Shown piece after piece: positions 20,255 to 47,906 of a stretch of DNA of 64,000 nt. This DNA comes from Candidatus Hydrogenedens sp. (GTDB lineage Bacteria; Hydrogenedentota; Hydrogenedentia; Hydrogenedentales; Hydrogenedentaceae). Position 1 is the first letter of the stretch. The number at the start of each line of letters is the position of its first letter. Where the stretch lies: NCBI GenBank assembly GCA_049968235.1, contig JBMFRC010000013.1:1-64000 (forward strand), written 5' to 3'. The notes under the pieces are model-generated. The model was given only the letters and a program-made list of their open reading frames with translations. It was not told the origin of the DNA and ran no database searches. Position numbers and translations under genes: made by a program.

Positions 20255-21748
20255 TTATTTCTCTTCTCTGTTTTTGAAAAGATAGTCTGTCATAGATTGT
20301 TTATGTTGAAATAAGACTATAGGTCTATAGGCTACTCTTTTCCCACCGGAATAAGGGCTTTTATCTTCCTGAAAAGCGTCAGATGAATAGAATTTAAAAA
20401 GCAGGTCTATATCTAAGGGAGTATATAAAGATAAACATATCCCATGGTTGGATGATGGTTGTTCAAGCCATTGATTGGTAAAATCAGAAATGTTTATTTT
20501 TATCCATCCTGTCCGAAATGGTAATTCCCAGATATTGAGAGGGTCATCCGAAGTATGAATTGGGGTATTCCAATTTGTTTCTAAAGAAGGAATACCATCA
20601 ATACCTTCAAACTCATCCGAAAGCCCATCTCCTTCTTCCCATACATCATTTATCTTTTGAACTTTTATACGAACAGGCTCAGACCCAATTCTTTTTATCT
20701 CTGCCAGATATAACCAGATAATGGCTTCTTTCAAATCTTCCTTTTTCCATTCTTTCGGCAAATCAAATTGAATTAGAATTTCTCGTCTTTGATTTTGTTC
20801 TATCCCGAGTGTTAGGTAAGGTTCTTTACCTGCATTATTTTCTGGTTTTCCTTGTATGATGGTGGTATCGCGAATGGACTGGATAGGAATAAAATCATTA
20901 TTCTTCCGGACATAAGGTGCATATTCCAGACTATTCTGGATAAAATAATCTCCCACAATTTTTGCGAAATAAAATTTCATAAATGTACTTACCGCAGATG
21001 CATTATGGTCAATACCCCCGTAATAATAATCTTTGTAATGCTGATATACCCAGTTATGTTTTTGTTTCATTATGTAAAATTGGGTCATGGCAACAAGTGG
21101 TCCGGAGGCAAGATAGCCCTGTTCACGGGTACAGCCTGCTTTTAATTGTTCTAAAGTTACCTGTTTATTTATTTTCTGGAAGCATGACAATATCGTTTCA
21201 AAGGGCCAGAATAGTTGTAAGGGTATGGGAGGAACAATTTCCTTTTCTGCGAACAGAAAAATATCCGTAGAGAATTCTGCTTCTCCATGAGAAGTTCCTC
21301 CTTCTTCTCGTGCAGAGGTTAAGAAGGAACGATGCTTTGCTTCATCGAAGTGCCAGGGAATATCGGAAATATCATGCACAATCATCCCGAGAAAAAATGC
21401 CAACTCTTTCCGTGCTTCTGCAGGGGGTAATTGGGGAAGTTTTTGTTGCAATACTTCCACGTATGCGGTTATAAAAGGGTTCCAGTGGGAAGTTTCTGCA
21501 CAATCGGGATTTATTTCTCCATAGCCCCAATCAGGGAAGGAACAACCTGCATAGAAAGCGGGATATACTTCTTTATCTTTGAACAACTCTGCTAATTCAA
21601 GATACTGTTTTTCCCATTCCATAATATATTTCTGAATAGCCTCCATGCCTATCTCTATATGAGCCCGAACACCAATGGCATCAGTCCTGATACATAGAAA
21701 TAAACAGAGGAGAATGAATAAGTATATATTTCTGTTTTTCATTCGCAT
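20255..21748 (-). CDS. Secreted protein with an N-terminal zinc-dependent phospholipase C / P1-nuclease-like domain and a C-terminal DNRLRE-like domain
   Basis: There is a signal peptide. Motifs CSFPDWGY, SHWNPF and GMIVHDISDIPWHFDE parallel the STYPDYD / HFWDPD / HYFGDIDTPYH metal-ligand motifs of Zn-PLC. The C-terminal NQRREILIQFDLP resembles the DNRLRE motif. Confidence 0.45.
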   Translation of the reverse strand: MRMKNRNIYLFILLCLFLCIRTDAIGVRAHIEIGMEAIQKYIMEWEKQYLELAELFKDKEVYPAFYAGCSFPDWGYGEINPDCAETSHWNPFITAYVEVLQQKLPQLPPAEARKELAFFLGMIVHDISDIPWHFDEAKHRSFLTSAREEGGTSHGEAEFSTDIFLFAEKEIVPPIPLQLFWPFETILSCFQKINKQVTLEQLKAGCTREQGYLASGPLVAMTQFYIMKQKHNWVYQHYKDYYYGGIDHNASAVSTFMKFYFAKIVGDYFIQNSLEYAPYVRKNNDFIPIQSIRDTTIIQGKPENNAGKEPYLTLGIEQNQRREILIQFDLPKEWKKEDLKEAIIWLYLAEIKRIGSEPVRIKVQKINDVWEEGDGLSDEFEGIDGIPSLETNWNTPIHTSDDPLNIWELPFRTGWIKINISDFTNQWLEQPSSNHGICLSLYTPLDIDLLFKFYSSDAFQEDKSPYSGGKRVAYRPIVLFQHKQSMTDYLFKNREEK

Positions 21749-24986: not shown

Positions 24987-25156
24987 AAGGATACCCTCCT
25001 GATTATTTAAGGTTTTATCTTTTATTAATTAATGGAATGTGTATTAGTATAACAAAAAAGAAACTTTCTTTCATTTTTAAAGTCTTTTTCTTGAATACTC
25101 ATATAAGATTAAATATACTCATAACAGGGGTAAACAAAACTATTATAAGGAGTGAA

Positions 25157-27826
25157 ATGATGAAAACAACAAAAAATTTATTAGGAACTTTACTCATTTG
25201 TGTAATTCTCATTCCATGGTATAGTTTTGCAGAGATACTACCTCTGGAACAGAACTGGCAGGTCCAGACATCCCGAGGATTGAATCTCGAAGGGAATGTA
25301 TTATCAACTACCAATTGTGTTACAGATAGTTGGTATAAAACAAAAGTGCCCAATACGATTCTTGCGGTGCTTGAAGATAGTAACGTTTATCCCAATTTAT
25401 ATTATGGAACAAATTTGAAGAAAGTACCGGGCTATCAAGATGACCTCTGGTTAATTATGCCGGAGAATAGTCCTTTCCGTGACCCGTGGTGGTATCGAAC
25501 AGAGTTTTCTGTCCCTGCAGAATGGAACGGGATGGAATGCACACTTCATTTTGAAGGTATCAATTATGAGGCGGAAATTTGGTTGAATGGACAAAAGATA
25601 GCGGACCGCTCTGAAGTGCGTGGTATGTTTCGTCGGTTTGAATTTTCTGTCTCCCAAAATCTGAAATATGGCGAAAAAAACGCATTGGCAGTGAAAATTT
25701 ATCCGCCGGGTCTTTTACCGTATAAAGATTATGATACAAAACAGATAGAAGCAACTACGGGTTGGGATGACCATAATCCACAACCACCGGATTTGAATAT
25801 GGGAATATGGCAACCTGTGTATATAAAAACACAGGGAAGCATTGCGTTACGACACCCGTATGTTGAAACTCAATTGAACCTTCCTTCATTGGATTCTGCA
25901 GATTTGACTGTATCTGCATGGATAACAAATATGAAGGGGCAAGAAGTAGAAGTTACTGTGAGAGGGACTATCGAAGACCGTGTTTTTGAACAGAATGTTA
26001 AATTAAATCCCGGGGAGAAACGGGAAATTATTTTCAAGCCAGAGGAATATCCTGTCCTGCACGTTCGATCTCCTCGTATCTGGTGGCCCGCACCGTTAGG
26101 GGAACAGAATTTATATATTCTTTCTATGGAAGCAATTACTCAGGGGAAAGTTTCTGATACGGCACAAACCCGTTTTGGAATTCGGGACATTCGTACCGAA
26201 CTGAACGAAGAAGATTGGCGTGTTTATTATGTCAACGGGGAAAAAATACTTATTCGGGGTGGAGCATGGATGACTTCTGATATGCTCCTCCGTCTTACTC
26301 GAACCCGATATGAAGCATTAATTCGCTATGCAAAAGAAGCCGGACTGAATATGCTCCGTTCGGAAGGTTTCTCTATACGTGAAACAAATATATTCTATGA
26401 CCTCTGTGATGAATATGGGGTTATGGTAACACAGCAAATTTTCGGTAGAACAATATTAGAAGAGGACCTGGCAATTCAATGTGTTGAAGATATGATGCTT
26501 CGTATTCGCAATCATCCAAGTCTGGTTCATTTCTTAGGACATGACGAAACCTTTCCATCTGAAAAATTAGATACTGCATATCAGGAACTGATTGCCCGAC
26601 ATCGTATCCACCGAACCTATCAGCCCCATTCCGGAACATTTGTAACAACAACGCGTCGCTCCACAGGAGGAACACGCACAGGCACACGAGAACTATGGAC
26701 CTACGCAGGACCTTCTCATTATTACCTGAGAACTCACGATGGAGCATGGGGATTCGCACAATCCGGAGGGATTGGCGGGATTATTGCAAGTCCTACCAGT
26801 TTAAGAGAGATGCTTCCTGCAGACCAACTCTGGCCTGCATTAGACACCGAAGCATGGTCATTCCACACAGTCATTCAAGGTGGAAGTTACTTCTACGCTT
26901 TGCGGGAGGCAATGAACAGTTGTTATGGTTCTGCAAAAGATTTCAATGACTTTTCAAGGAAAATAGAAGCCATGAACTTTAACAGTGCAAGAGGAATGTT
27001 TGAAGCATATGCAAGGAATAAATATAAAGCCACAGGAATTACAACATGGAAATATAACACCGCCTGGCCCGCGAGTATAACCTGGCAATATGTGGACTGG
27101 TATCTTCGTCCAACATCCGCATATTACGGCGCTAAGAAAGCGTGTGAGCCAATTCATGTTTTATATGCCTATGATGATGAGTGTGTATGGGTGGTAAATA
27201 GTTATCGAAAAGAAATAGCAAATTTGCGACTATCCGCAGAAGCGTTTCATCTTAACGGAGGAACCTTCTGGTCTCAAACAAAAGATAACATTACAGTAAG
27301 CCCGGACGGGAAAACAAAGATTTGTGAAGTAAATATCCCCGAAGAACAGCGGAGACCCATGTTTTTCCTTCGTCTCCAACTATTTGATGAAACGAATCAC
27401 CTCATCTCCACAAATACCTATTGGCTTTCAGCGACCCCGGATATTCCCGGTGTTAGCGGGCATAATCTTAAAGGAATTTTTTATACTCGACCCAAATCCA
27501 AAGCGGATTTTACAAAATTAAACGAATTGGAGAAAACAAAAATACATATCCGAGGGGAAGAAATTTTAAAAACAGAGAAAGAGCGTATTTTTAAAGTTCA
27601 TGTAAAGAATACGGGTAGTAATATTGCATTTATGCTCATCCCTGAATTATATGCCCCTGATAAACCCGGTTATGAACTTCCACGAGTTTATTGGTCAGAA
27701 GGAGGGATTATCCTGCGTCCATCTGAAGAAATTACGATACAGGCAAAAGTCCCACTGGATACCTTACCCGAAAAGATATCGCCTTTGTTCAACGTTCGTG
27801 GTTGGAATGTAGAACAAATACAATAA
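25157..27826 (+). CDS. Glycoside hydrolase family 2 protein (beta-mannosidase / exo-beta-glucosaminidase-like), secreted
   Basis: A signal peptide follows the ATG at 25157, with an RBS aaggag. GH2 sugar-binding and TIM-barrel signatures (WWYRTEF ... NGQKI ..., NMLRSEG) are present. The track start at 25037 is probably an over-extension. Confidence 0.7.
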   Translation: MMKTTKNLLGTLLICVILIPWYSFAEILPLEQNWQVQTSRGLNLEGNVLSTTNCVTDSWYKTKVPNTILAVLEDSNVYPNLYYGTNLKKVPGYQDDLWLIMPENSPFRDPWWYRTEFSVPAEWNGMECTLHFEGINYEAEIWLNGQKIADRSEVRGMFRRFEFSVSQNLKYGEKNALAVKIYPPGLLPYKDYDTKQIEATTGWDDHNPQPPDLNMGIWQPVYIKTQGSIALRHPYVETQLNLPSLDSADLTVSAWITNMKGQEVEVTVRGTIEDRVFEQNVKLNPGEKREIIFKPEEYPVLHVRSPRIWWPAPLGEQNLYILSMEAITQGKVSDTAQTRFGIRDIRTELNEEDWRVYYVNGEKILIRGGAWMTSDMLLRLTRTRYEALIRYAKEAGLNMLRSEGFSIRETNIFYDLCDEYGVMVTQQIFGRTILEEDLAIQCVEDMMLRIRNHPSLVHFLGHDETFPSEKLDTAYQELIARHRIHRTYQPHSGTFVTTTRRSTGGTRTGTRELWTYAGPSHYYLRTHDGAWGFAQSGGIGGIIASPTSLREMLPADQLWPALDTEAWSFHTVIQGGSYFYALREAMNSCYGSAKDFNDFSRKIEAMNFNSARGMFEAYARNKYKATGITTWKYNTAWPASITWQYVDWYLRPTSAYYGAKKACEPIHVLYAYDDECVWVVNSYRKEIANLRLSAEAFHLNGGTFWSQTKDNITVSPDGKTKICEVNIPEEQRRPMFFLRLQLFDETNHLISTNTYWLSATPDIPGVSGHNLKGIFYTRPKSKADFTKLNELEKTKIHIRGEEILKTEKERIFKVHVKNTGSNIAFMLIPELYAPDKPGYELPRVYWSEGGIILRPSEEITIQAKVPLDTLPEKISPLFNVRGWNVEQIQ

Positions 27827-42093: not shown

Positions 42094-42471
42094 TTATTTA
42101 GCAAACTGCATATCTGAATATGTATTATCATATAGATTGTTTCGGAACTTGGTCCCATATTCCTGTTCATACCAGGAATTAAACACATGGGCATACTTGA
42201 TTATCCAGTCGTATGTAGCTTCAGTTCTAACATTTCTCCCCTGCTTTTCAGATTCAATCCATATATGTTTTTCTATCTCCTGTTTCTGGAGAATATTTTT
42301 GTGCAAGACCTTGATGTGATTCGGTGAAAATTCACATAAGTACCTTATCATTTCATCAATTATGTAGTTTTCAAGGGGGAAATTAAAAAACTGGCGAAGA
42401 TTACATAAGAATAGTTCACGATTACAACCTACGGATAAGAATGCTCTACCGTAACAACATTCACTATCCAT
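42094..42471 (-). CDS. Hypothetical small protein inside an AT-rich island
   Basis: A 125-aa ORF with AT-rich flanks and no recognised domain. Confidence 0.3.
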   Translation of the reverse strand: MDSECCYGRAFLSVGCNRELFLCNLRQFFNFPLENYIIDEMIRYLCEFSPNHIKVLHKNILQKQEIEKHIWIESEKQGRNVRTEATYDWIIKYAHVFNSWYEQEYGTKFRNNLYDNTYSDMQFAK

Positions 42472-42644: not shown

Positions 42645-44219
42645 CTATTGATGTGTCGTTTTTATAATTTTACTGTCGAGTTCTGCTATCCCTGCAATTT
42701 TTAACCGCCCTTTGTTAAGACTTATTGTGATTTTGATTTTTTTGAATAACTTAATTTTATTGAATAAATCATTTATTTTTTCCGGGTTTTGAAATTGTAA
42801 TACATTTGATTCCATTAGAACTGCGACTGCATTGTTAATTTCTGTAATAAGTTTTTCCGGTTTCACCTGTAGAATCAATGAATAATTACCTTCAGATAAG
42901 GTGTTCTTATTTTTTATATGTTCTATTATCTGATTTTGTAATTCTCGGTTATTCGCAAATAGCAAAGAATCTTCTGCACACTGGATATGTAAATCTGTCT
43001 GAGAACTACCAATAAGAGGGACAATATATTCATTGGAATTGGGAGAAGAAAGAGCCTTATTTTTCTCTCCAAGAACAATGATGGTAGGGTCGATAATTGC
43101 TTGAACAATATCTTCGCACATATTGGGGTTTGTTTTTGCAATAACACAATATCTGGGTATAAAGGGAATAATTTCATCTGTATAAAAAGAATCTACCGCA
43201 ATATAAAACTCATTATTAACAAAAGGAGAAAAAGATTTTAACCAGTCTGCAAAGGGAATTTCTGTTGGATTGGTAAAGGGTTGTATAAGACTGGCTTTTG
43301 GTATGGTTTCAAAAGCACGGAGCCATGTTTTAATCGGTACACCTGTGTTAATAGAACAAGAAAAAAGTGTATCTACAGGTTCCTGTAAGGGGGATGAGAC
43401 AACTTCCGAAAGTAAAATTGTCCACGGTGTTTCCATATCCGGAGTTATTTGTGTTTCACATTTAAGTCCCAATTGGTCTCTTGTTAAGGCAAGATAGAAA
43501 TAAATTTGAGAAAAGAGTCCCTGAAAATCCTCATGTTGAGGTGTGAAAGTTCCCCATGCTAAATGCCTTTCCTGATTCCTCATGAGTTCAGCAGTGATGA
43601 CTGTCTCTGTTTTTTTGTCTCCCTTTTGTGTTATGGATTGCACCAGTGTTTCGCGATTGGGTGATAAGAGCAGGACCCTTCCCTTACGTGCATAATATAA
43701 TTTCTGTTCCGGTAGGTACCGCAGATTTAGACCACCTGCCCAATCTACTTCTATAGGCTGTGTCCATGAATAAAGTTTTTCAATAACACAACCAATGCAT
43801 GATAGCCGAACAATTAACAGGGCATCTTCAAATGTTTTCAGGTCGTTCACAGAAAAATAGAAAAAGTCATAAATAAGATGTTTTATTACCCATAAAGGTA
43901 TTCGTTGTTGGTCAGATAACAATTTCTTTACTTCAAGTATCATTGAAGAAGGTTCTGCCAATTCCCAGAGAGGAGAGGCTATAAGGGTCTGGTAATTCTG
44001 CATAATTTGTGGACTGAAAACTTGAAAGGCAGGTGCATTAGGAATAAATCGTTCCACAGGATATATATCTCTTGTTGACCATGTGAACCAGACGAAGAAA
44101 AGGAAAATAATCAGGGTAAATAACTTCAATAAAAACTTTAAAAAACTTTTTTTAGGTCTTCGCCTTCGCATACCAGATACACGATATACACGCATAGTTT
44201 CACTCATAAAAATAATCAA
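42645..44219 (-). CDS. Hypothetical N-terminally membrane-anchored protein
   Basis: It overlaps the upstream gene by 4 nt, which suggests an operon. An RRRRPKK segment is followed by a TM helix. No domain was recognised. Confidence 0.45.
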   Translation of the reverse strand: MIIFMSETMRVYRVSGMRRRRPKKSFLKFLLKLFTLIIFLFFVWFTWSTRDIYPVERFIPNAPAFQVFSPQIMQNYQTLIASPLWELAEPSSMILEVKKLLSDQQRIPLWVIKHLIYDFFYFSVNDLKTFEDALLIVRLSCIGCVIEKLYSWTQPIEVDWAGGLNLRYLPEQKLYYARKGRVLLLSPNRETLVQSITQKGDKKTETVITAELMRNQERHLAWGTFTPQHEDFQGLFSQIYFYLALTRDQLGLKCETQITPDMETPWTILLSEVVSSPLQEPVDTLFSCSINTGVPIKTWLRAFETIPKASLIQPFTNPTEIPFADWLKSFSPFVNNEFYIAVDSFYTDEIIPFIPRYCVIAKTNPNMCEDIVQAIIDPTIIVLGEKNKALSSPNSNEYIVPLIGSSQTDLHIQCAEDSLLFANNRELQNQIIEHIKNKNTLSEGNYSLILQVKPEKLITEINNAVAVLMESNVLQFQNPEKINDLFNKIKLFKKIKITISLNKGRLKIAGIAELDSKIIKTTHQ

Positions 44220-46588
44220 ATCCCTGATTCTATGGATATAAATTCTGAAGGCTTTCCTTCATTATCTCTGACTGATAGCCAGACTTTATTTTCCGTCGGT
44301 TCAAAGATTACACTTAAACGACTATTCCCATTCCATATTTGGGAAGGAGAACTATCTTGATTATCGGAAGATGTCATAATCGTTTTGAGTTCTTCCGGAC
44401 TAATAATCCGTTCATCTTCTATTTTTTTTATGAGATTTGAATATCTTTTTACAGTAGATTCCGAGGCAGTTGCAATGGAACCACAACCCAATAAGATACC
44501 CTGTTTAGAAAGGTCCTGAGCAATAGTATCTTCCGGTTTGAGCGAAGGGAATAGTAATGCAGACCATTTCCCTTTATTATCCTTCCCTGCAAGGAGTACA
44601 TGGTATGCTTGTGGGATAATTATTTTAGATATTTCTTCCACTGCCGACTCGAGGGTATTACATGTAGATAAAATATGTTTCATTGTAAATTCAGGACCCG
44701 GCGTATCCTCCGATAGATTTGTTTTTATAGAGGCATCCCGAGTTATAGACAAAACGATACCAGATTGATTCATCCCACATAGGGTTCCATCAAACCATGG
44801 AAAACCAATCTCAATAAAATTTACTCCATGGACAGGTTTATGTCGGAATATAACCGGCAATTCATTTATTGCCCAATCAACCGTATGAGCAATAAGAATA
44901 TCCTTTGCTCCTGCTCGTTCTCCCAAAATAGCAACAGCGGTGCATAAGGGCGTATCAAATAGCGGATTATAAGATTGAGCATTCTGTATATTTATAGCAT
45001 TTTGAAGAAGCCAGATTTTATCGAACGGCATTTCCGCACCATCAGATATGCCTATGAGTTCATCTACTATTTCTGGATGCAATTTCTTTGCCCATGGTCG
45101 GATGCTAATTGCCATAGCAGGCAAGATTAAAGAACTAATATTTATCCATGATGATGGGATGAAGGAAAAGAAACCCTGTTCTGGCAGGTATCGTCCCTCC
45201 AGTATAGGTCTTTGTATTAATTCATCAAATCGCTTCTGAATCTGCTCCTTTGAAAATTGTCCCCTTGCCGAACCTCTTTCGTAAGAAGTCCCCGATAGAT
45301 TTATAATGGAAATGGAACCTATCTTATCGATTTGAGGAATATCCACGGGAGTAATCTGTAATTCCGGCTTTTCTATTCCTATTAAAGATAAACATGTATT
45401 CAAGACCCACTTTTCTGCCTGAGGCCCAAAAAAATGAGCTCCTGCCTCGTATGTTTTATCAAAAAGGAGATGTTTCGGTACAAAATACACCAGATAATCA
45501 TTTGCCAGACCCACTGTGAAATGTGCTTTAAATCCTGCCTCTAACGCATGTTCACGAAGTTGGAGTGCGTATTCCACACACACTTCTCCGGGGAAAAAGG
45601 AAATAGCCAAACCATTTACCTGGAGTGAATGGAACAGTACCTTTTCCGGGAAAAAGGTCGCTATACTTATGGGTAGAGGTATTTCTTTTGCTGTTAATTT
45701 TAATTTTGCATCGGAAAGAGGAACACTTTTCTGTGCTTCATAAACACGCCGTGCCAAAATCCTCCCTACTTTTTCAGTTCGAGCCCAGCCGGAACTTTGT
45801 TCGGGGGCTTGAATAGTCTGGTTCCCTTCTGCACCGTTCAGAAAGAATGGGACACAACCCGGTGAAGATAACTGTTCTATTTCAAGATAGTAATATCCCG
45901 GATAATCGGAAGAGAAGGAATAAAAATCCTCATCCCCAATGGATGTGGGATGCCCTGCCATATTGGCAATTATTGCAATCTCATTCCCGTTTGCATCTTC
46001 AATCACAATAAAACCAATTTGCGGGTCCATCGGACCTACCGGATAACGGCGATTGCAGGTTAAATCGTTTTGCTGAATACTCCCATACCCCAATACAGCA
46101 TTTTGTGCTTTCTCTTTTGCATCGCGAAGTGCCTGACTGATAATACGTGCTGTGCGTTCTACAAGTTCGGGGATATATCTGCCAGAGACAAAGCGGATAG
46201 GATAATTTTTGCACATTCCCCCAAAACCATTGTGGGTATGGGTCGCAGTCATAATAATATTTTGTGACGGGAAATTTTCAGGTGCCATAATAATAACTTT
46301 TTCTCGCAGTTCTCGGTCAATAACACACAAATCCAAACTAACGAGAAATAGTTCTGTTTCATCATCTGCAAGATAAAGGACATGCGCCCACAAGGGGTCA
46401 TGAACTGCTCTCGCTCCTTTTCCTAATCTCGCACCATAACCATTCAGAGGAACACCTAAATCCGGGGTAATTTCAACTTTAACCGCTCCTGCTTTAAGAG
46501 CCTCCGTACAAAATGGATAAAATAACAGCAAAGAAAATATAAAACAGATAATAAAGACTTTATTTAAAAAGATACTCTGCTTTTTCAT
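44216..46588 (-). CDS. Fusion protein: N-terminal neutral/alkaline ceramidase domain plus C-terminal Ntn-hydrolase (peptidase C45 / acyl-CoA:6-APA acyltransferase-like) domain
   Basis: After the signal peptide, AGAVKVEITPDLGVPLNGYG ... LVSLDL ... MTATHTHNGFGGM parallels the neutral ceramidase GAGKADITGP ... SATHTHSGPGGY motifs. The C-terminal PLCTAVAIL ... GMNQSGIVLS fits the Cys-nucleophile and GxNExGL pattern of C45 Ntn hydrolases. Confidence 0.55.
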   Translation of the reverse strand: MKKQSIFLNKVFIICFIFSLLLFYPFCTEALKAGAVKVEITPDLGVPLNGYGARLGKGARAVHDPLWAHVLYLADDETELFLVSLDLCVIDRELREKVIIMAPENFPSQNIIMTATHTHNGFGGMCKNYPIRFVSGRYIPELVERTARIISQALRDAKEKAQNAVLGYGSIQQNDLTCNRRYPVGPMDPQIGFIVIEDANGNEIAIIANMAGHPTSIGDEDFYSFSSDYPGYYYLEIEQLSSPGCVPFFLNGAEGNQTIQAPEQSSGWARTEKVGRILARRVYEAQKSVPLSDAKLKLTAKEIPLPISIATFFPEKVLFHSLQVNGLAISFFPGEVCVEYALQLREHALEAGFKAHFTVGLANDYLVYFVPKHLLFDKTYEAGAHFFGPQAEKWVLNTCLSLIGIEKPELQITPVDIPQIDKIGSISIINLSGTSYERGSARGQFSKEQIQKRFDELIQRPILEGRYLPEQGFFSFIPSSWINISSLILPAMAISIRPWAKKLHPEIVDELIGISDGAEMPFDKIWLLQNAINIQNAQSYNPLFDTPLCTAVAILGERAGAKDILIAHTVDWAINELPVIFRHKPVHGVNFIEIGFPWFDGTLCGMNQSGIVLSITRDASIKTNLSEDTPGPEFTMKHILSTCNTLESAVEEISKIIIPQAYHVLLAGKDNKGKWSALLFPSLKPEDTIAQDLSKQGILLGCGSIATASESTVKRYSNLIKKIEDERIISPEELKTIMTSSDNQDSSPSQIWNGNSRLSVIFEPTENKVWLSVRDNEGKPSEFISIESGI

Positions 46589-46718: not shown

Positions 46719-47126
46719 TTAATGATGATGATTACATGTCAAACCCTCTTCATGCTTCAAAGAACCTTGAAGAAAAAGAGTAAGGGCTGTTTTTATATCT
46801 TTTTCTGATGTGATTATCGTTCTTATATTAGCAGACTCGAATCTGCTTTTCATCCCGTATCCCATTCCACCCGCAATTACCACATCAATATTCGCAAATC
46901 TTTGTGCTACTTGTTCGTGCGTATCTATAGAATGATTATGCTCATGGGAATGCGGTTGTGAATGTTCTGAATCATGAGAATGTTGGGCATGCCCGGTAAT
47001 TGTATTCGGGATATACTCTTCATTTACGATATTACCGTTCTCAATCTCGACAATTAAAAAACCTTTCGTTCGCCCAAAATGTGCTGAAATTGTTTTTTTA
47101 TTATTTGTTGGAATAACAACTTTCAT
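46719..47126 (-). CDS. NifB/NifX-family dinitrogenase FeMo-cofactor-binding-like domain protein with a His-rich insert
   Basis: MKVVIPTNNKKTISAHFGRTKGFLIV ... VVIAGGMGYGM is the typical NifX/NafY-like fold signature. It has a His-rich loop HAQHSHDSEHSQPHSHEHNHS. Confidence 0.7.
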   Translation of the reverse strand: MKVVIPTNNKKTISAHFGRTKGFLIVEIENGNIVNEEYIPNTITGHAQHSHDSEHSQPHSHEHNHSIDTHEQVAQRFANIDVVIAGGMGYGMKSRFESANIRTIITSEKDIKTALTLFLQGSLKHEEGLTCNHHH

Positions 47127-47159: not shown

Positions 47160-47486
47160 TTACAGTTCTATGTTTTTCACCTTTGAAGCATGCAGGATGT
47201 TCCCTCTGGAACTGCGATAAAATGCATGGGGTCCTCTACCACAGCGACATGGACCGATATAAGTCCATTCGGAAGATTCTGTTGTTTCGTTCGACAAATT
47301 GCTTTCCGGTGGGTTATCTGCTGGATTGTTCGGAGACATCCATCTCCAACCTTGACGATAATAACCCGGTGAAGATAATCCGGGGGTCGGACTGTTAGTA
47401 GACATCCATCTCCGACCTTGACCACCACCGAAACGGAATTGTCCACGATTATTAAATGAATTAGCAAAATTTCTTTGGGTTCTCAT
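47160..47486 (-). CDS. Gly/Arg/Trp-rich small protein with an internal 22-aa tandem repeat (possibly DUF5320-like)
   Basis: A strong RBS aaggag lies 7 nt upstream. The composition and the position between the DUF134 and NifX-like genes match the DUF134 / DUF5320 / NifX neighbourhood of anaerobes. Homology is not certain. Confidence 0.4.
   Translation of the reverse strand: MRTQRNFANSFNNRGQFRFGGGQGRRWMSTNSPTPGLSSPGYYRQGWRWMSPNNPADNPPESNLSNETTESSEWTYIGPCRCGRGPHAFYRSSRGNILHASKVKNIEL
47325..47456. repeat. 66-bp tandem direct repeat inside CDS 47160..47486
   Basis: ggattgttcggagacatccatctccaaccttgac recurs 66 bp later as ggactgttagtagacatccatctccgaccttgac. It encodes the GRRWMSTNSP / GWRWMSPNNP repeat. 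Confidence 0.5.
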
Positions 47487-47510: not shown

Positions 47511-47906
47511 TCATTGTTTACTTTCATTTTTATTCCGGTCTGATTCTAAAAAATAAGCCTTCTGTTTACAATGCCTATGGCAATGTCTACCACCACCACG
47601 CTCCTTCTGTCTGCAAACAAAATTGACAGGTCCCCCCATTATCCGAATGGGCTTCCCCTCTACAATAGCACCAACAATCTTCCTGCGTGCCTGCTCAATG
47701 ATTCGTGAAAATGTGGGGCGTGAGACTCCCATTTCTTGCCCCGCTTCTTCATGATACATTCCCAAATAATCAGCGAGACGGAGTGCTTCAAACTCATCCA
47801 GAGAAAGCACTACTGGCTCTCTTTCCATTCCTCCCTGTTCACAAGGAATGAATTCCTTAACGGGCGGGCATGCATTCAATCTTCGGGAACAATAGGGTCT
47901 TGCCAT
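47511..47906 (-). CDS. DUF134 (UPF0251) putative DNA-binding protein
   Basis: The N-terminus MARPYCSRRLNACPPVKEFIPCEQG matches the DUF134 M-P-R-P-x-K-x-R-R-V ... F-K-P signature. The central region has a sigma-70 region 4-like HTH. The C-terminus is Cys/His-rich. Confidence 0.7.
   Translation of the reverse strand: MARPYCSRRLNACPPVKEFIPCEQGGMEREPVVLSLDEFEALRLADYLGMYHEEAGQEMGVSRPTFSRIIEQARRKIVGAIVEGKPIRIMGGPVNFVCRQKERGGGRHCHRHCKQKAYFLESDRNKNESKQ

What the first reader, a model, noticed from the sequence alone, without database searches (positions are those of the whole stretch)
44216..46588. Single polypeptide fusing a neutral/alkaline ceramidase domain to a Cys-nucleophile Ntn-hydrolase (C45 / acid-ceramidase-like) domain
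The N-terminal roughly 480 aa track neutral ceramidase motifs closely, including the Zn/His cluster ATHTHNGFGGM. The C-terminal roughly 300 aa begin with a PL-CTAVAIL putative autoproteolytic Cys and carry GMNQSGIVLS, as in peptidase C45 / acyl-CoA:6-APA acyltransferase Ntn hydrolases. Acid ceramidase and NAAA belong to that same structural superfamily. Two N-acyl-amide hydrolase folds in one secreted protein suggests sequential or dual processing of sphingolipid-like, N-acyl-amino-acid or acyl-homoserine-lactone substrates. I am not aware of this architecture being described. The gene is translationally coupled by a 4-nt overlap to a 524-aa membrane-anchored protein of unknown function.
Basis: partly seen in the sequence, partly recalled or inferred. 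Interest (0 to 1): 0.65.

Follow-up and report, generated by a model that had tools for sequence, protein, structure and literature searches.

The report
Ceramidase-like plus C45 amidase fusion
An exported protein of an uncultured Hydrogenedentota bacterium joins two different amide-cutting enzymes in one chain: a zinc ceramidase-like domain and a self-cleaving cysteine hydrolase. The same pairing recurs as fused or neighbouring genes in other phyla and probably strips fatty acids off amide-linked lipids, but no member has been tested.

Summary
ORF 44216-46588 (minus strand, 790 aa) is a real two-enzyme fusion, not a frameshift. More than 110 full-length homologues share it.

- **Model:** AF2 is confident (pLDDT 92.7, pTM 0.90).
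- **Missing part:** the ceramidase Ig-like tail domain is absent, with the C45 domain in its place.
- **Same pairing elsewhere:** adjacent separate genes in Planctomycetota and Omnitrophota, a reversed-order fusion, and triple fusions with an α/β-hydrolase.
- **Partner:** in Hydrogenedentota a ~500-aa membrane-anchored protein, whose model resembles the proposed lipid carrier TP0453, always follows and is usually translationally coupled.

Best reading: an exported dual amidase that deacylates amide-linked lipids, assisted by a lipid-handling partner. Substrate and activity are untested, and it is not a neutral ceramidase orthologue. I found no paper describing the architecture. New variant of known kinds, moderate interest.

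The parts
46499..46588 (-). Signal peptide (residues 1 to about 30, MKKQSIFLNKVFIICFIFSLLLFYPFCTEA|LKAG)
   Evidence: Two Lys, then a hydrophobic helix 2-23 in AF2. The 11 homologue N-termini inspected have equivalent hydrophobic leaders ending A-x-A-like just before the conserved (L/F)(K/E)AGA motif. No lipobox. Cleavage is inferred, not tested.
45359..46498 (-). Zn-dependent neutral-ceramidase-like catalytic domain (residues 31-410), lacking the canonical Ig-like C-terminal domain
46232..46240 (-). H117-T-H119 motif: Zn ligand and catalytic His, equivalent to P. aeruginosa nCDase H97 and H99. The other site residues are H213, E335, Y368, Y380 and R180.
   Evidence: Residue mapping from the HMMER alignments to 2zws. 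The roles of the 2zws residues are from my recollection of Inoue et al. 2009. Conservation across 114 sequences: H117 114, H119 111, H213 110, E335 113, Y368 111, Y380 112, R180 111. Coordinates checked.
44945..45334 (-). C45 proenzyme alpha/pro segment (residues 419-548): a beta-hairpin, then seven helices, ending in the flexible loop 540-546
44942..44944 (-). Cys549 codon: predicted Ntn nucleophile and autoproteolytic site (L548|C549)
   Evidence: Cys in 111 of 114 sequences and Thr550 in 113 of 114. The preceding residue is always hydrophobic or nearly so (L/F/I/M/Y). It is the first residue of beta-strand 549-555. It aligns to the Cys of 3gvz.
44219..44944 (-). C45 beta-subunit (residues 549-790) carrying D571, N607 (in GMNQSG) and R715
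   Evidence: D571, N607 and R715 are invariant in 114 of 114. The DW and GxN motifs align with 3gvz and the NAAA beta-subunit. Foldseek IAT 2x1d E 4e-14, TM 0.73 on the target.
42645..44219 (-). Conserved partner gene: 520 aa from the ATG at 44207 (or 524 aa from the TTG at 44219). N-terminal basic tail, one TM helix, and a large extracytoplasmic alpha/beta body.
44205..44221 (-). Gene junction: fusion stop TGA at 44218-44216, candidate partner starts TTG 44219 (4-nt overlap) or ATG 44207 (8-nt spacer)
   Evidence: Read directly from the sequence. In related loci the conserved Met start overlaps the stop by 4 nt in 11 of 24 and by 8 nt in 3 of 24.

Best explanation
The gene encodes an exported (periplasmic or secreted) enzyme with two active sites, both built to hydrolyse carbon-nitrogen amide bonds.

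- The N-terminal domain is a zinc amidase with the complete catalytic core of neutral ceramidases.
- The C-terminal domain is a C45-type cysteine Ntn hydrolase made as a proenzyme. It is predicted to cut itself between Leu548 and Cys549.
- The mature enzyme would then be two chains held together: (Zn-amidase + C45 alpha segment) and (C45 beta-subunit with Cys549 as its free N-terminal nucleophile).
- The two domains act on the same substrate or pathway, most likely amide-linked (N-acyl) lipids, removing acyl chains in sequence or covering two different amide bonds.
- The translationally coupled, membrane-anchored partner, whose model resembles the membrane-inserting proposed lipid carrier TP0453, is proposed to extract or present the lipid substrate.
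- Released fatty acids would feed beta-oxidation in these putatively lipolytic bacteria.

Shown: the architecture, the folds, conservation of both catalytic sites, export signals, and the genetic linkage.
Inferred: autoprocessing, the lipid nature of the substrate, the order of the steps, and the partner's role.
For: Folds and active sites:
- AF2 pLDDT 92.7, pTM 0.90.
- Every Zn or catalytic residue of both halves is kept in 110-114 of 114 sequences.
- The only disordered segment, 540-546, directly precedes Cys549, as expected for an Ntn processing loop.

Functional coupling of the two domains (Rosetta-stone evidence):
- 28 of 84 loci have both domains in one ORF, and 10 have a separate C45 ORF immediately downstream on the same strand, in Planctomycetota, Omnitrophota and unclassified MAGs.
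- P0258 has the two domains in reversed order.
- 68 of the top 150 cluster representatives are N-to-C fusions.

Lipid hints:
- Relatives fuse the N-domain to SCP2 lipid-transfer domains (P0208, P0273).
- Others fuse the pair to an alpha/beta-hydrolase (P0207, P0211, P0299, P0292).
- The nearest solved folds are lipid amidases.
- The partner's best structural match is TP0453, a proposed lipid/glycolipid carrier (PMC5421087).
- A crotonase-type enoyl-CoA hydratase lies directly upstream in 11 of 25 loci.
- The phylum is described as lipolytic (PMC6121073).

Export: signal peptides on the fusions, and on each gene of the split pairs.
Operon: partner present in 24 of 24 testable loci, usually overlapping or within 7 nt of the fusion's stop.
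Against: - No member has been assayed, so substrate identity is entirely inferential.
- The N-half is far from true neutral ceramidases (31.7 bits against a 1200-bit equivalog cut-off). It lacks roughly 115 residues that the canonical enzymes insert between the His213 and Glu335 equivalents (alignment spans). From recollection, that region lines the hydrophobic pocket in the human enzyme.
- Stand-alone N-domain homologues occur in archaea, where to my knowledge ceramide-type N-acyl lipids have not been reported.
- Characterised C45 enzymes act on non-lipid amides: penicillin precursors, and N-beta-alanyl-dopamine or carcinine for Drosophila Tan (PMC1285064).
- The ECH neighbour is generic, absent from the window, and present in under half of the loci.
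- The partner model is only moderate (pLDDT 74.9, 16 sequences), so the TP0453 similarity is a lead, not proof.
- No sphingolipid-synthesis gene was seen among the window ORFs I scanned.
Confidence: 0.55

Rival explanations
1. Housekeeping envelope-lipid remodelling. The pair edits the bacterium's own outer-membrane or periplasmic lipids (for example de-N-acylation of a lipid A-like glycolipid, a lipoprotein or an aminolipid) rather than feeding on external lipids, with the partner acting as an envelope lipid carrier.
For: The fusion-plus-partner module is found across Hydrogenedentota from 32% to 87% identity, with otherwise unrelated neighbours in most loci. This looks more like a core envelope function than a catabolic island. 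The partner is membrane-anchored, and TP0453 was proposed to act in outer-membrane biogenesis (PMC5421087).
Against: An ECH gene lies upstream on the same strand in 11 of 25 loci, which points to fatty-acid catabolism. The phylum is described as lipolytic (PMC6121073). I could not measure what fraction of Hydrogenedentota genomes carry the module.
Confidence: 0.2
2. The substrates are non-lipid amides. The two domains process small N-acyl amines, peptides, beta-lactam-like compounds or acyl-homoserine lactones (detoxification, quorum quenching or nutrient scavenging), and the ceramidase resemblance is only a matter of fold.
For: Characterised C45 enzymes use non-lipid substrates (IAT; Tan, PMC1285064). 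Ntn relatives include AHL and penicillin acylases. The N-half misses the ceramidase equivalog cut-off by a wide margin. Archaeal homologues exist.
Against: SCP2 lipid-transfer fusions in the N-domain family. The TP0453-like membrane-anchored partner. The ECH neighbour. The nearest folds to the N-half are lipid amidases only.
Confidence: 0.15
3. The C45 half works as an acyltransferase, as IAT does. The Zn domain removes one acyl chain and the C45 domain puts on another (N-acyl exchange), rather than both hydrolysing.
Against: The protein carries a signal peptide. Acyl-CoA, IAT's donor, is not expected outside the cytoplasm (general knowledge). Nothing in the loci suggests an alternative donor system.
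Confidence: 0.07
4. Only one half is an enzyme. The other is a structural or regulatory module, for example the C45 domain merely standing in for the missing Ig-like tail domain.
For: The C45 domain occupies the position of the canonical Ceramidse_alk_C domain. A few family members have C549 replaced by G or S, or H119 by M.
Against: Both catalytic constellations are kept in 110-114 of 114 sequences. The two also occur as separate, individually exported genes and in reversed order, which a purely structural role would not explain.
Confidence: 0.03
5. Assembly or frameshift artefact joining two genes.
For: None found. The source is a metagenome-assembled genome.
Against: The same single ORF is present in more than 110 homologues from independent assemblies and sources. 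AF2 gives a confident interdomain arrangement.
Confidence: 0

Closest known systems
Neutral ceramidase (P. aeruginosa PaCD, PDB 2ZWS/2ZXC; human ASAH2, PDB 4WGK)
Acyl-CoA:isopenicillin-N acyltransferase (MEROPS C45, PDB 2X1C/2X1D)
   Different: 12-13% identity. IAT is an intracellular fungal acyltransferase that uses acyl-CoA. Here the domain is exported, fused to a metallo-amidase, and the residue before the Cys is hydrophobic, whereas from recollection it is Gly in IAT.
Acid ceramidase (ASAH1) and NAAA (MEROPS C89)
   Different: A different family (CBAH/C89, not C45). They are lysosomal eukaryotic enzymes. The resemblance is at fold level only (13-14% identity).
Adjacent ceramidase-like and C45 gene pairs in Planctomycetota and Omnitrophota (e.g. 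L031, L040, L049), and the fused L035 (Ca. Taenariivivens)
   Same: The same two families in the same order, each product with its own export signal. These are the nearest non-Hydrogenedentota relatives of both halves.
   Different: Mostly two separate genes. The C45 protein has a different C-terminal region: it matches only about the first 230 of 313 model positions. No partner gene. 22-31% identity.
Treponema pallidum TP0453 (PDB 3K8G), for the partner protein
   Different: 9% identity. The partner is twice as long and anchored by a TM helix rather than a lipid. The model is only moderately confident. The function of TP0453 is itself only a proposal.

Membership tests
Neutral/alkaline non-lysosomal ceramidase (Pfam PF04734; NCBIfam NF041649 equivalog) | Sequence match to the family model above the curated threshold | tested here: inconclusive
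   Pfam PF04734 is met (58.9 bits against 32.1), but only over model positions 4-227 of 509. The NCBIfam neutral-ceramidase equivalog is not met (31.7 against 1200 bits). So this is a superfamily member, not an orthologue. Short PF04734 matches of this kind are a known pattern for this model (PMC4443539).
Neutral/alkaline non-lysosomal ceramidase | Catalytic-domain fold | tested here: met
Neutral/alkaline non-lysosomal ceramidase | Zn site and catalytic residues (PaCD H97, H99, H204, E411, Y448, Y460) | tested here: met
   H117, H119, H213, E335, Y368 and Y380 align to them and are kept in 110-114 of 114 sequences.
Neutral/alkaline non-lysosomal ceramidase | C-terminal Ig-like domain (Ceramidse_alk_C) | tested here: not met
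Neutral/alkaline non-lysosomal ceramidase | Hydrolysis of ceramide to a sphingoid base and a fatty acid | not testable with these tools
   Needs an enzyme assay.
C45 autoproteolytic acyltransferase/hydrolase (NCBIfam NF040521; Pfam PF03417 AAT) | Sequence match above the curated threshold | tested here: met
   NF040521 89.7 bits against 85, covering model positions 1-312 of 313. Pfam AAT is just below the gathering score here (21.2 against 23.2) but above it in relatives scanned directly, e.g. P0207 at 58.6 and L035 at 47.4 bits.
C45 autoproteolytic acyltransferase/hydrolase | Ntn alpha-beta-beta-alpha fold with an alpha/pro segment | tested here: met
C45 autoproteolytic acyltransferase/hydrolase | Conserved Cys nucleophile at the start of the first beta-strand, preceded by a flexible linker, with supporting Asp, Asn and Arg | tested here: met
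   C549 in 111 of 114; D571, N607 and R715 in 114 of 114. Loop 540-546 is below pLDDT 50, followed by strand 549-555. The motifs align with 3gvz and NAAA.
C45 autoproteolytic acyltransferase/hydrolase | Autoproteolytic maturation exposing the Cys alpha-amine | not testable with these tools
   Needs expression followed by SDS-PAGE or mass spectrometry of wild type against C549A.
Acid ceramidase / NAAA (C89, Pfam CBAH) | Sequence membership in CBAH/NAAA families | tested here: not met

The most novel reading that the evidence does not exclude
The fusion, its split-gene relatives and the triple fusions with an alpha/beta-hydrolase define an undescribed, multi-phylum extracytoplasmic pathway for complete deacylation of multiply acylated envelope lipids, such as lipid A-type glycolipids with two non-equivalent N-acyl chains, or glycine/ornithine lipids. 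One amidase handles each amide bond. In Hydrogenedentota a dedicated TP0453-like membrane protein extracts the lipid, in the way saposins serve acid ceramidase.
Probability: 0.2. Interest if true: 0.7.

Novelty: new variant of a known kind. Interest (0 to 1): 0.55.

Why it matters
Amide-linked lipids (lipid A, sphingolipids, ornithine and glycine lipids, lipoproteins) make up a large share of bacterial biomass, yet how environmental bacteria break their amide bonds is poorly known. Here two unrelated amidase families are tied together genetically in four different ways: fused, fused in reverse order, adjacent, and fused with a third hydrolase. That is strong comparative evidence that they work in one pathway. 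It gives concrete handles for experiments: predicted catalytic residues, a predicted cleavage site and a candidate helper protein. It also shows that the database name, 'neutral/alkaline ceramidase N-terminal domain-containing protein', hides half of the enzyme, and that a widespread short 'ceramidase-like' family found in many bacterial phyla and some archaea probably has substrates other than ceramide. If the substrate proves ordinary, or one domain proves inactive, this is simply a new domain arrangement of known enzymes.

Tried and rejected
1. **Frameshift or chimera:** rejected.
2. **C-half is the normal ceramidase tail domain:** rejected.
3. **N-domain tree to count fusion events (NJ tree with Fitch parsimony):** uninformative. 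It gave 17 state changes because 'N-only' representatives mix truncated metagenomic fragments with split systems whose neighbours cannot be seen. Not used.
4. **Extending the partner family by searching again with an alignment:** no gain beyond 15-16 sequences, because of the word-index limit. The partner AF2 model therefore rests on a shallow alignment.
5. **Pfam, NCBIfam and PHROGs on the partner:** no hits.
6. **Assigning the upstream ECH to a specific subfamily:** it scores below every equivalog cut-off, so it is only a generic crotonase.
7. **Looking for sphingolipid-synthesis or other lipid genes near the gene in the window:** the 27 ORFs scanned are unrelated to it (flagellar export, PDH complex, DUFs). 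The Zn-phospholipase-C-like and GH2 glucosaminidase-like genes lie 17-24 kb away and are not evidence. Not every window ORF was scanned.
8. **Literature searches for the architecture:** nothing describing it. The library does not include most subscription-journal papers.
9. **Active-site geometry and the relative position of the two sites:** could not be inspected, because model coordinates are not exposed to the scripting tool.


Full report
**1. The observation**

The window has an ATG-initiated ORF of 790 aa at 44216..46588 on the minus strand. The quoted motifs are there: ATHTHNGF (residues 115-122) and DTPL-CTAVA with Cys549. Pfam finds Ceramidase_alk on residues 34-238 (E 4.8e-16) and AAT on 565-772 (E 2.7e-4, just under the gathering score). 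NCBIfam's C45_proenzyme model covers residues 432-768 at 89.7 bits, above its cut-off of 85. By sequence alone the N-half finds the two solved neutral ceramidases in two stretches, 46-247 and 314-392.

The exact protein is GenBank MGC8738893.1 from a Candidatus Hydrogenedens MAG, named only for its N-terminal domain.

**2. Not an artefact: a conserved family**

A search of 5.8 billion proteins returned 147 homologues. More than 110 of them are full length (about 765-843 aa), with identities down to 32%, and many have both Pfam domains precomputed. In the alignment of 114 of them (A1), both halves are conserved. An exhaustive HMMER search of 1.84 billion cluster representatives gave 193 hits at E <= 1e-30. 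Of the top 150, 68 are N-domain-then-C45 fusions.

**3. Structure**

AF2 on A1 gave a very confident model (mean pLDDT 92.7, pTM 0.90). The only segment below pLDDT 50 is 540-546, immediately before Cys549.

- After those come other Ntn hydrolases: CV2077, AHL, cephalosporin and penicillin acylases, phospholipase-B-like proteins, bile-salt hydrolases and proteasome subunits. Foldseek agrees.

So residues about 31-410 are a neutral-ceramidase-type catalytic domain. Residues about 419-790 are a complete C45 proenzyme: a helical alpha/pro segment (419-548), a loop, and a beta-subunit that starts at Cys549. The Ig-like tail domain of canonical neutral ceramidases is absent, and the C45 unit sits in its place. 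The short Pfam match (model positions 4-227 of 509) is a sensitivity effect already documented for PF04734 (PMC4443539), not a truncated domain.

**4. Active sites**

Using the HMMER alignments to 2zws, H117, H119, H213, E335, Y368 and Y380 correspond to PaCD H97, H99, H204, E411, Y448 and Y460. By my recollection of Inoue et al. 2009, these are the Zn ligands and catalytic residues. Across the 114 sequences they are kept in 114, 111, 110, 113, 111 and 112.

In the C-half, C549 is kept in 111 of 114 and T550 in 113, while D571, N607 and R715 are kept in all 114. The residue before the Cys is hydrophobic in nearly every sequence. The family profile aligns the CT, DW and GxN motifs with CV2077 (3gvz, E 9.5e-7) and a NAAA beta-subunit (E 3e-5). 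Both halves therefore look catalytically competent.

**5. Export**

The protein starts with a basic, then hydrophobic, leader ending TEA|LKAG. The 11 homologues whose N-termini I inspected have equivalent leaders just before the conserved (L/F)(K/E)AGA motif. There is no lipobox.

**6. The same pairing in other arrangements**

A scan of one genome per GTDB species gave 80 loci. I analysed them together with four loci fetched by exact protein look-up. A profile search over all ORFs classified the 84 loci:

- 28 loci have both domains in one ORF. These are the Hydrogenedentota loci plus L027, L032 and L035. L035 is from Candidatus Taenariivivens, an Omnitrophota genus.
- 10 loci have a separate C45 ORF immediately downstream on the same strand: L031, L036, L037, L039, L040, L049, L050, L051, L055 and L057. 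By their record titles these are mostly Planctomycetota and Omnitrophota MAGs.
- 46 loci have the N-domain alone, from many bacterial phyla and from archaea (Bathyarchaeia, Hadarchaeota, Thermococci).

Pfam and NCBIfam confirm the split pairs: Ceramidase_alk proteins of 429-460 aa followed by C45_proenzyme proteins of 408-436 aa scoring 154-163 bits. Each has its own signal-like N-terminus, and one has a lipobox-like FSGC.

Among the representatives, P0258 (888 aa) has the order reversed, C45 then ceramidase-like. BLASTP confirms this, and it implies an independent fusion event. P0207, P0211, P0299 and P0292 (about 1100-1140 aa) add an alpha/beta-hydrolase domain after the pair. P0208 and P0273 join the ceramidase-like domain to an SCP2 lipid-transfer domain.

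Fusion, reversed fusion and conserved adjacency together form a classic Rosetta-stone argument that the two enzymes act in one process.

**7. The partner**

The downstream gene (42645..44207 or 44219) has no Pfam, NCBIfam or PHROG hit. A homologue lies directly downstream of the fusion in 24 of 25 Hydrogenedentota-type loci. In the 25th (L018) the contig ends 63 nt after the fusion. None of the other 59 loci has it. BLASTP gives E 1e-47 and 5e-19 to the partners of fusions that are only 39% and 34% identical to the window's.

NCBI's call and the conserved M-S-E N-terminus favour the ATG at 44207, which leaves an 8-nt spacer. In related loci, however, the conserved Met overlaps the fusion's stop codon by 4 nt in 11 of 24 and by 8 nt in 3 of 24. 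Tight translational coupling is therefore a family trait.

**8. Other context**

A 260-aa crotonase-type enoyl-CoA hydratase lies directly upstream on the same strand in 11 of 25 related loci. This includes the 78%-identical L005, but not the window. It falls below every NCBIfam equivalog cut-off, so it is a generic ECH.

In the window the module is flanked by unrelated genes: a Nitro_FeMo-Co/DUF134 pair and a pyruvate dehydrogenase cluster upstream, DUF6599 and DUF362 downstream, and flagellar export genes further on. No serine-palmitoyltransferase-like gene was seen among the 27 ORFs scanned. The phylum has been described from metagenomics as comprising lipolytic glycerol degraders (PMC6121073, citing Nobu et al. 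2015).

**9. Most likely mechanism**

Shown:
- An exported single chain carries two intact amide-hydrolase active sites of unrelated folds.
- The two are genetically locked together across phyla.
- In Hydrogenedentota a conserved, translationally coupled, membrane-anchored partner follows.

Inferred:
- The C45 half self-cleaves at L548|C549. This would give a two-chain enzyme in which the Zn-amidase stays covalently attached to the C45 alpha segment.
- Both sites act on the same N-acylated, probably lipid, substrate or pathway. The support is the SCP2 and alpha/beta-hydrolase fusions, the lipid-amidase nearest folds, the TP0453-like partner, the ECH neighbour and the lipolytic ecology.
- The partner extracts or presents the lipid.

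I put about 0.55 on this package. The architecture and site conservation are near-certain. A lipid substrate is about even odds. Ceramide specifically is well below that: the N-half misses the ceramidase equivalog threshold (31.7 against 1200 bits), it lacks about 115 residues that canonical enzymes carry between the third His and the Glu, and it has archaeal stand-alone relatives. Characterised C45 enzymes also use non-lipid amides (IAT; Drosophila Tan, PMC1285064).

**10. Rivals**

- Envelope-lipid remodelling rather than catabolism (0.2).
- Non-lipid amide substrates (0.15).
- The C45 half acting as an acyltransferase (0.07).
- One half inactive or purely structural (0.03).
- Artefact (refuted).

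**11. Comparison and novelty**

The protein works like a neutral ceramidase in its N-half and like a C45/acid-ceramidase-type Ntn hydrolase in its C-half. It is a superfamily member of the first, but not an orthologue. It is a threshold-passing member of the second. It is not a member of the acid ceramidase/NAAA family.

The family is already in public databases under a name that reflects only its N-terminal domain. I found no paper describing the combination, its split-gene relatives or the partner, though the searchable library is incomplete. I rate it a new variant of known kinds, of moderate interest (0.55). The comparative signal is unusually clean and directly testable, but both enzyme classes are well known and no function is yet demonstrated.

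Noticed in passing
P0207, P0211, P0299, P0292 (representative proteins): Proteins of about 1100-1140 aa with three hydrolase domains in a row: Ceramidase_alk, C45/AAT and an alpha/beta-hydrolase (ABHD18, Peptidase_S9 or DLH hits). P0228 (965 aa) has the ceramidase-like domain, a remnant C45 segment and an alpha/beta-hydrolase. Source organisms are unknown.
   Followed up: partly
P0208 (952 aa) and P0273 (995 aa): The ceramidase-like domain is fused to an SCP2 sterol/lipid-transfer domain (P0273 also has a weak PHP hit below its Pfam cut-off). This hints that the short ceramidase-like family handles hydrophobic substrates.
   Followed up: no
P0247, P0284, P0296, P0304 (688-716 aa): The ceramidase-like domain sits at the C-terminus, behind an N-terminal region of about 330 aa. 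Pfam finds nothing in that region for the two I scanned (P0247, P0296). This is another uncharacterised architecture of the family.
   Followed up: no
L031:4514-5971 and L049:3989-5494: In both a Planctomycetales and an Omnitrophota MAG, a CCA-adding tRNA nucleotidyltransferase-like gene lies directly upstream of the split ceramidase-like/C45 pair and overlaps it by 4 nt. The shared synteny across two phyla is unexplained.
   Followed up: no
L011, L017, L023: MAGs labelled 'uncultured Nitrospirales/Nitrospiraceae' carry the complete Hydrogenedentota-type module (ECH, fusion, partner) at 36-41% identity. This may be taxonomic mislabelling, mis-binning or horizontal transfer.
   Followed up: no
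window 46719-47126 (-) and 47511-47906 (-): Directly upstream of the fusion gene is a small Nitro_FeMo-Co (NifX/NifB-C-like) protein with a His-rich insert (HSHDSEHSQPHSHEHNHS). A DUF134 HTH protein follows, and between them is a 108-aa ORF (47160-47486) containing an internal near-repeat (RRWMSTNSP / WRWMSPNNP). Possibly a metal-related regulatory unit; not linked to the fusion in other loci.
   Followed up: no
window 20255-21748 (-) and 25037-27826 (+): A 497-aa protein with a Zn-dependent phospholipase C domain, and a 929-aa GH2 protein with an exo-beta-D-glucosaminidase Ig-fold domain. Both fit a lifestyle of degrading envelope or lipid material, but they lie 17-24 kb from the fusion and I do not count them as evidence.
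   Followed up: no
Alignment A1: A few family members have substitutions at catalytic positions (C549 to G or S in 3 sequences, H119 to M in 3, H213 to Q or R in 4). These could be inactivated variants or sequencing errors. I did not check whether the changes co-occur in the same proteins.
   Followed up: no
window 42094-42471 (-): A 125-aa ORF with no Pfam hit lies 173 nt downstream of the partner on the same strand. Its conservation in other loci was not examined.
   Followed up: no
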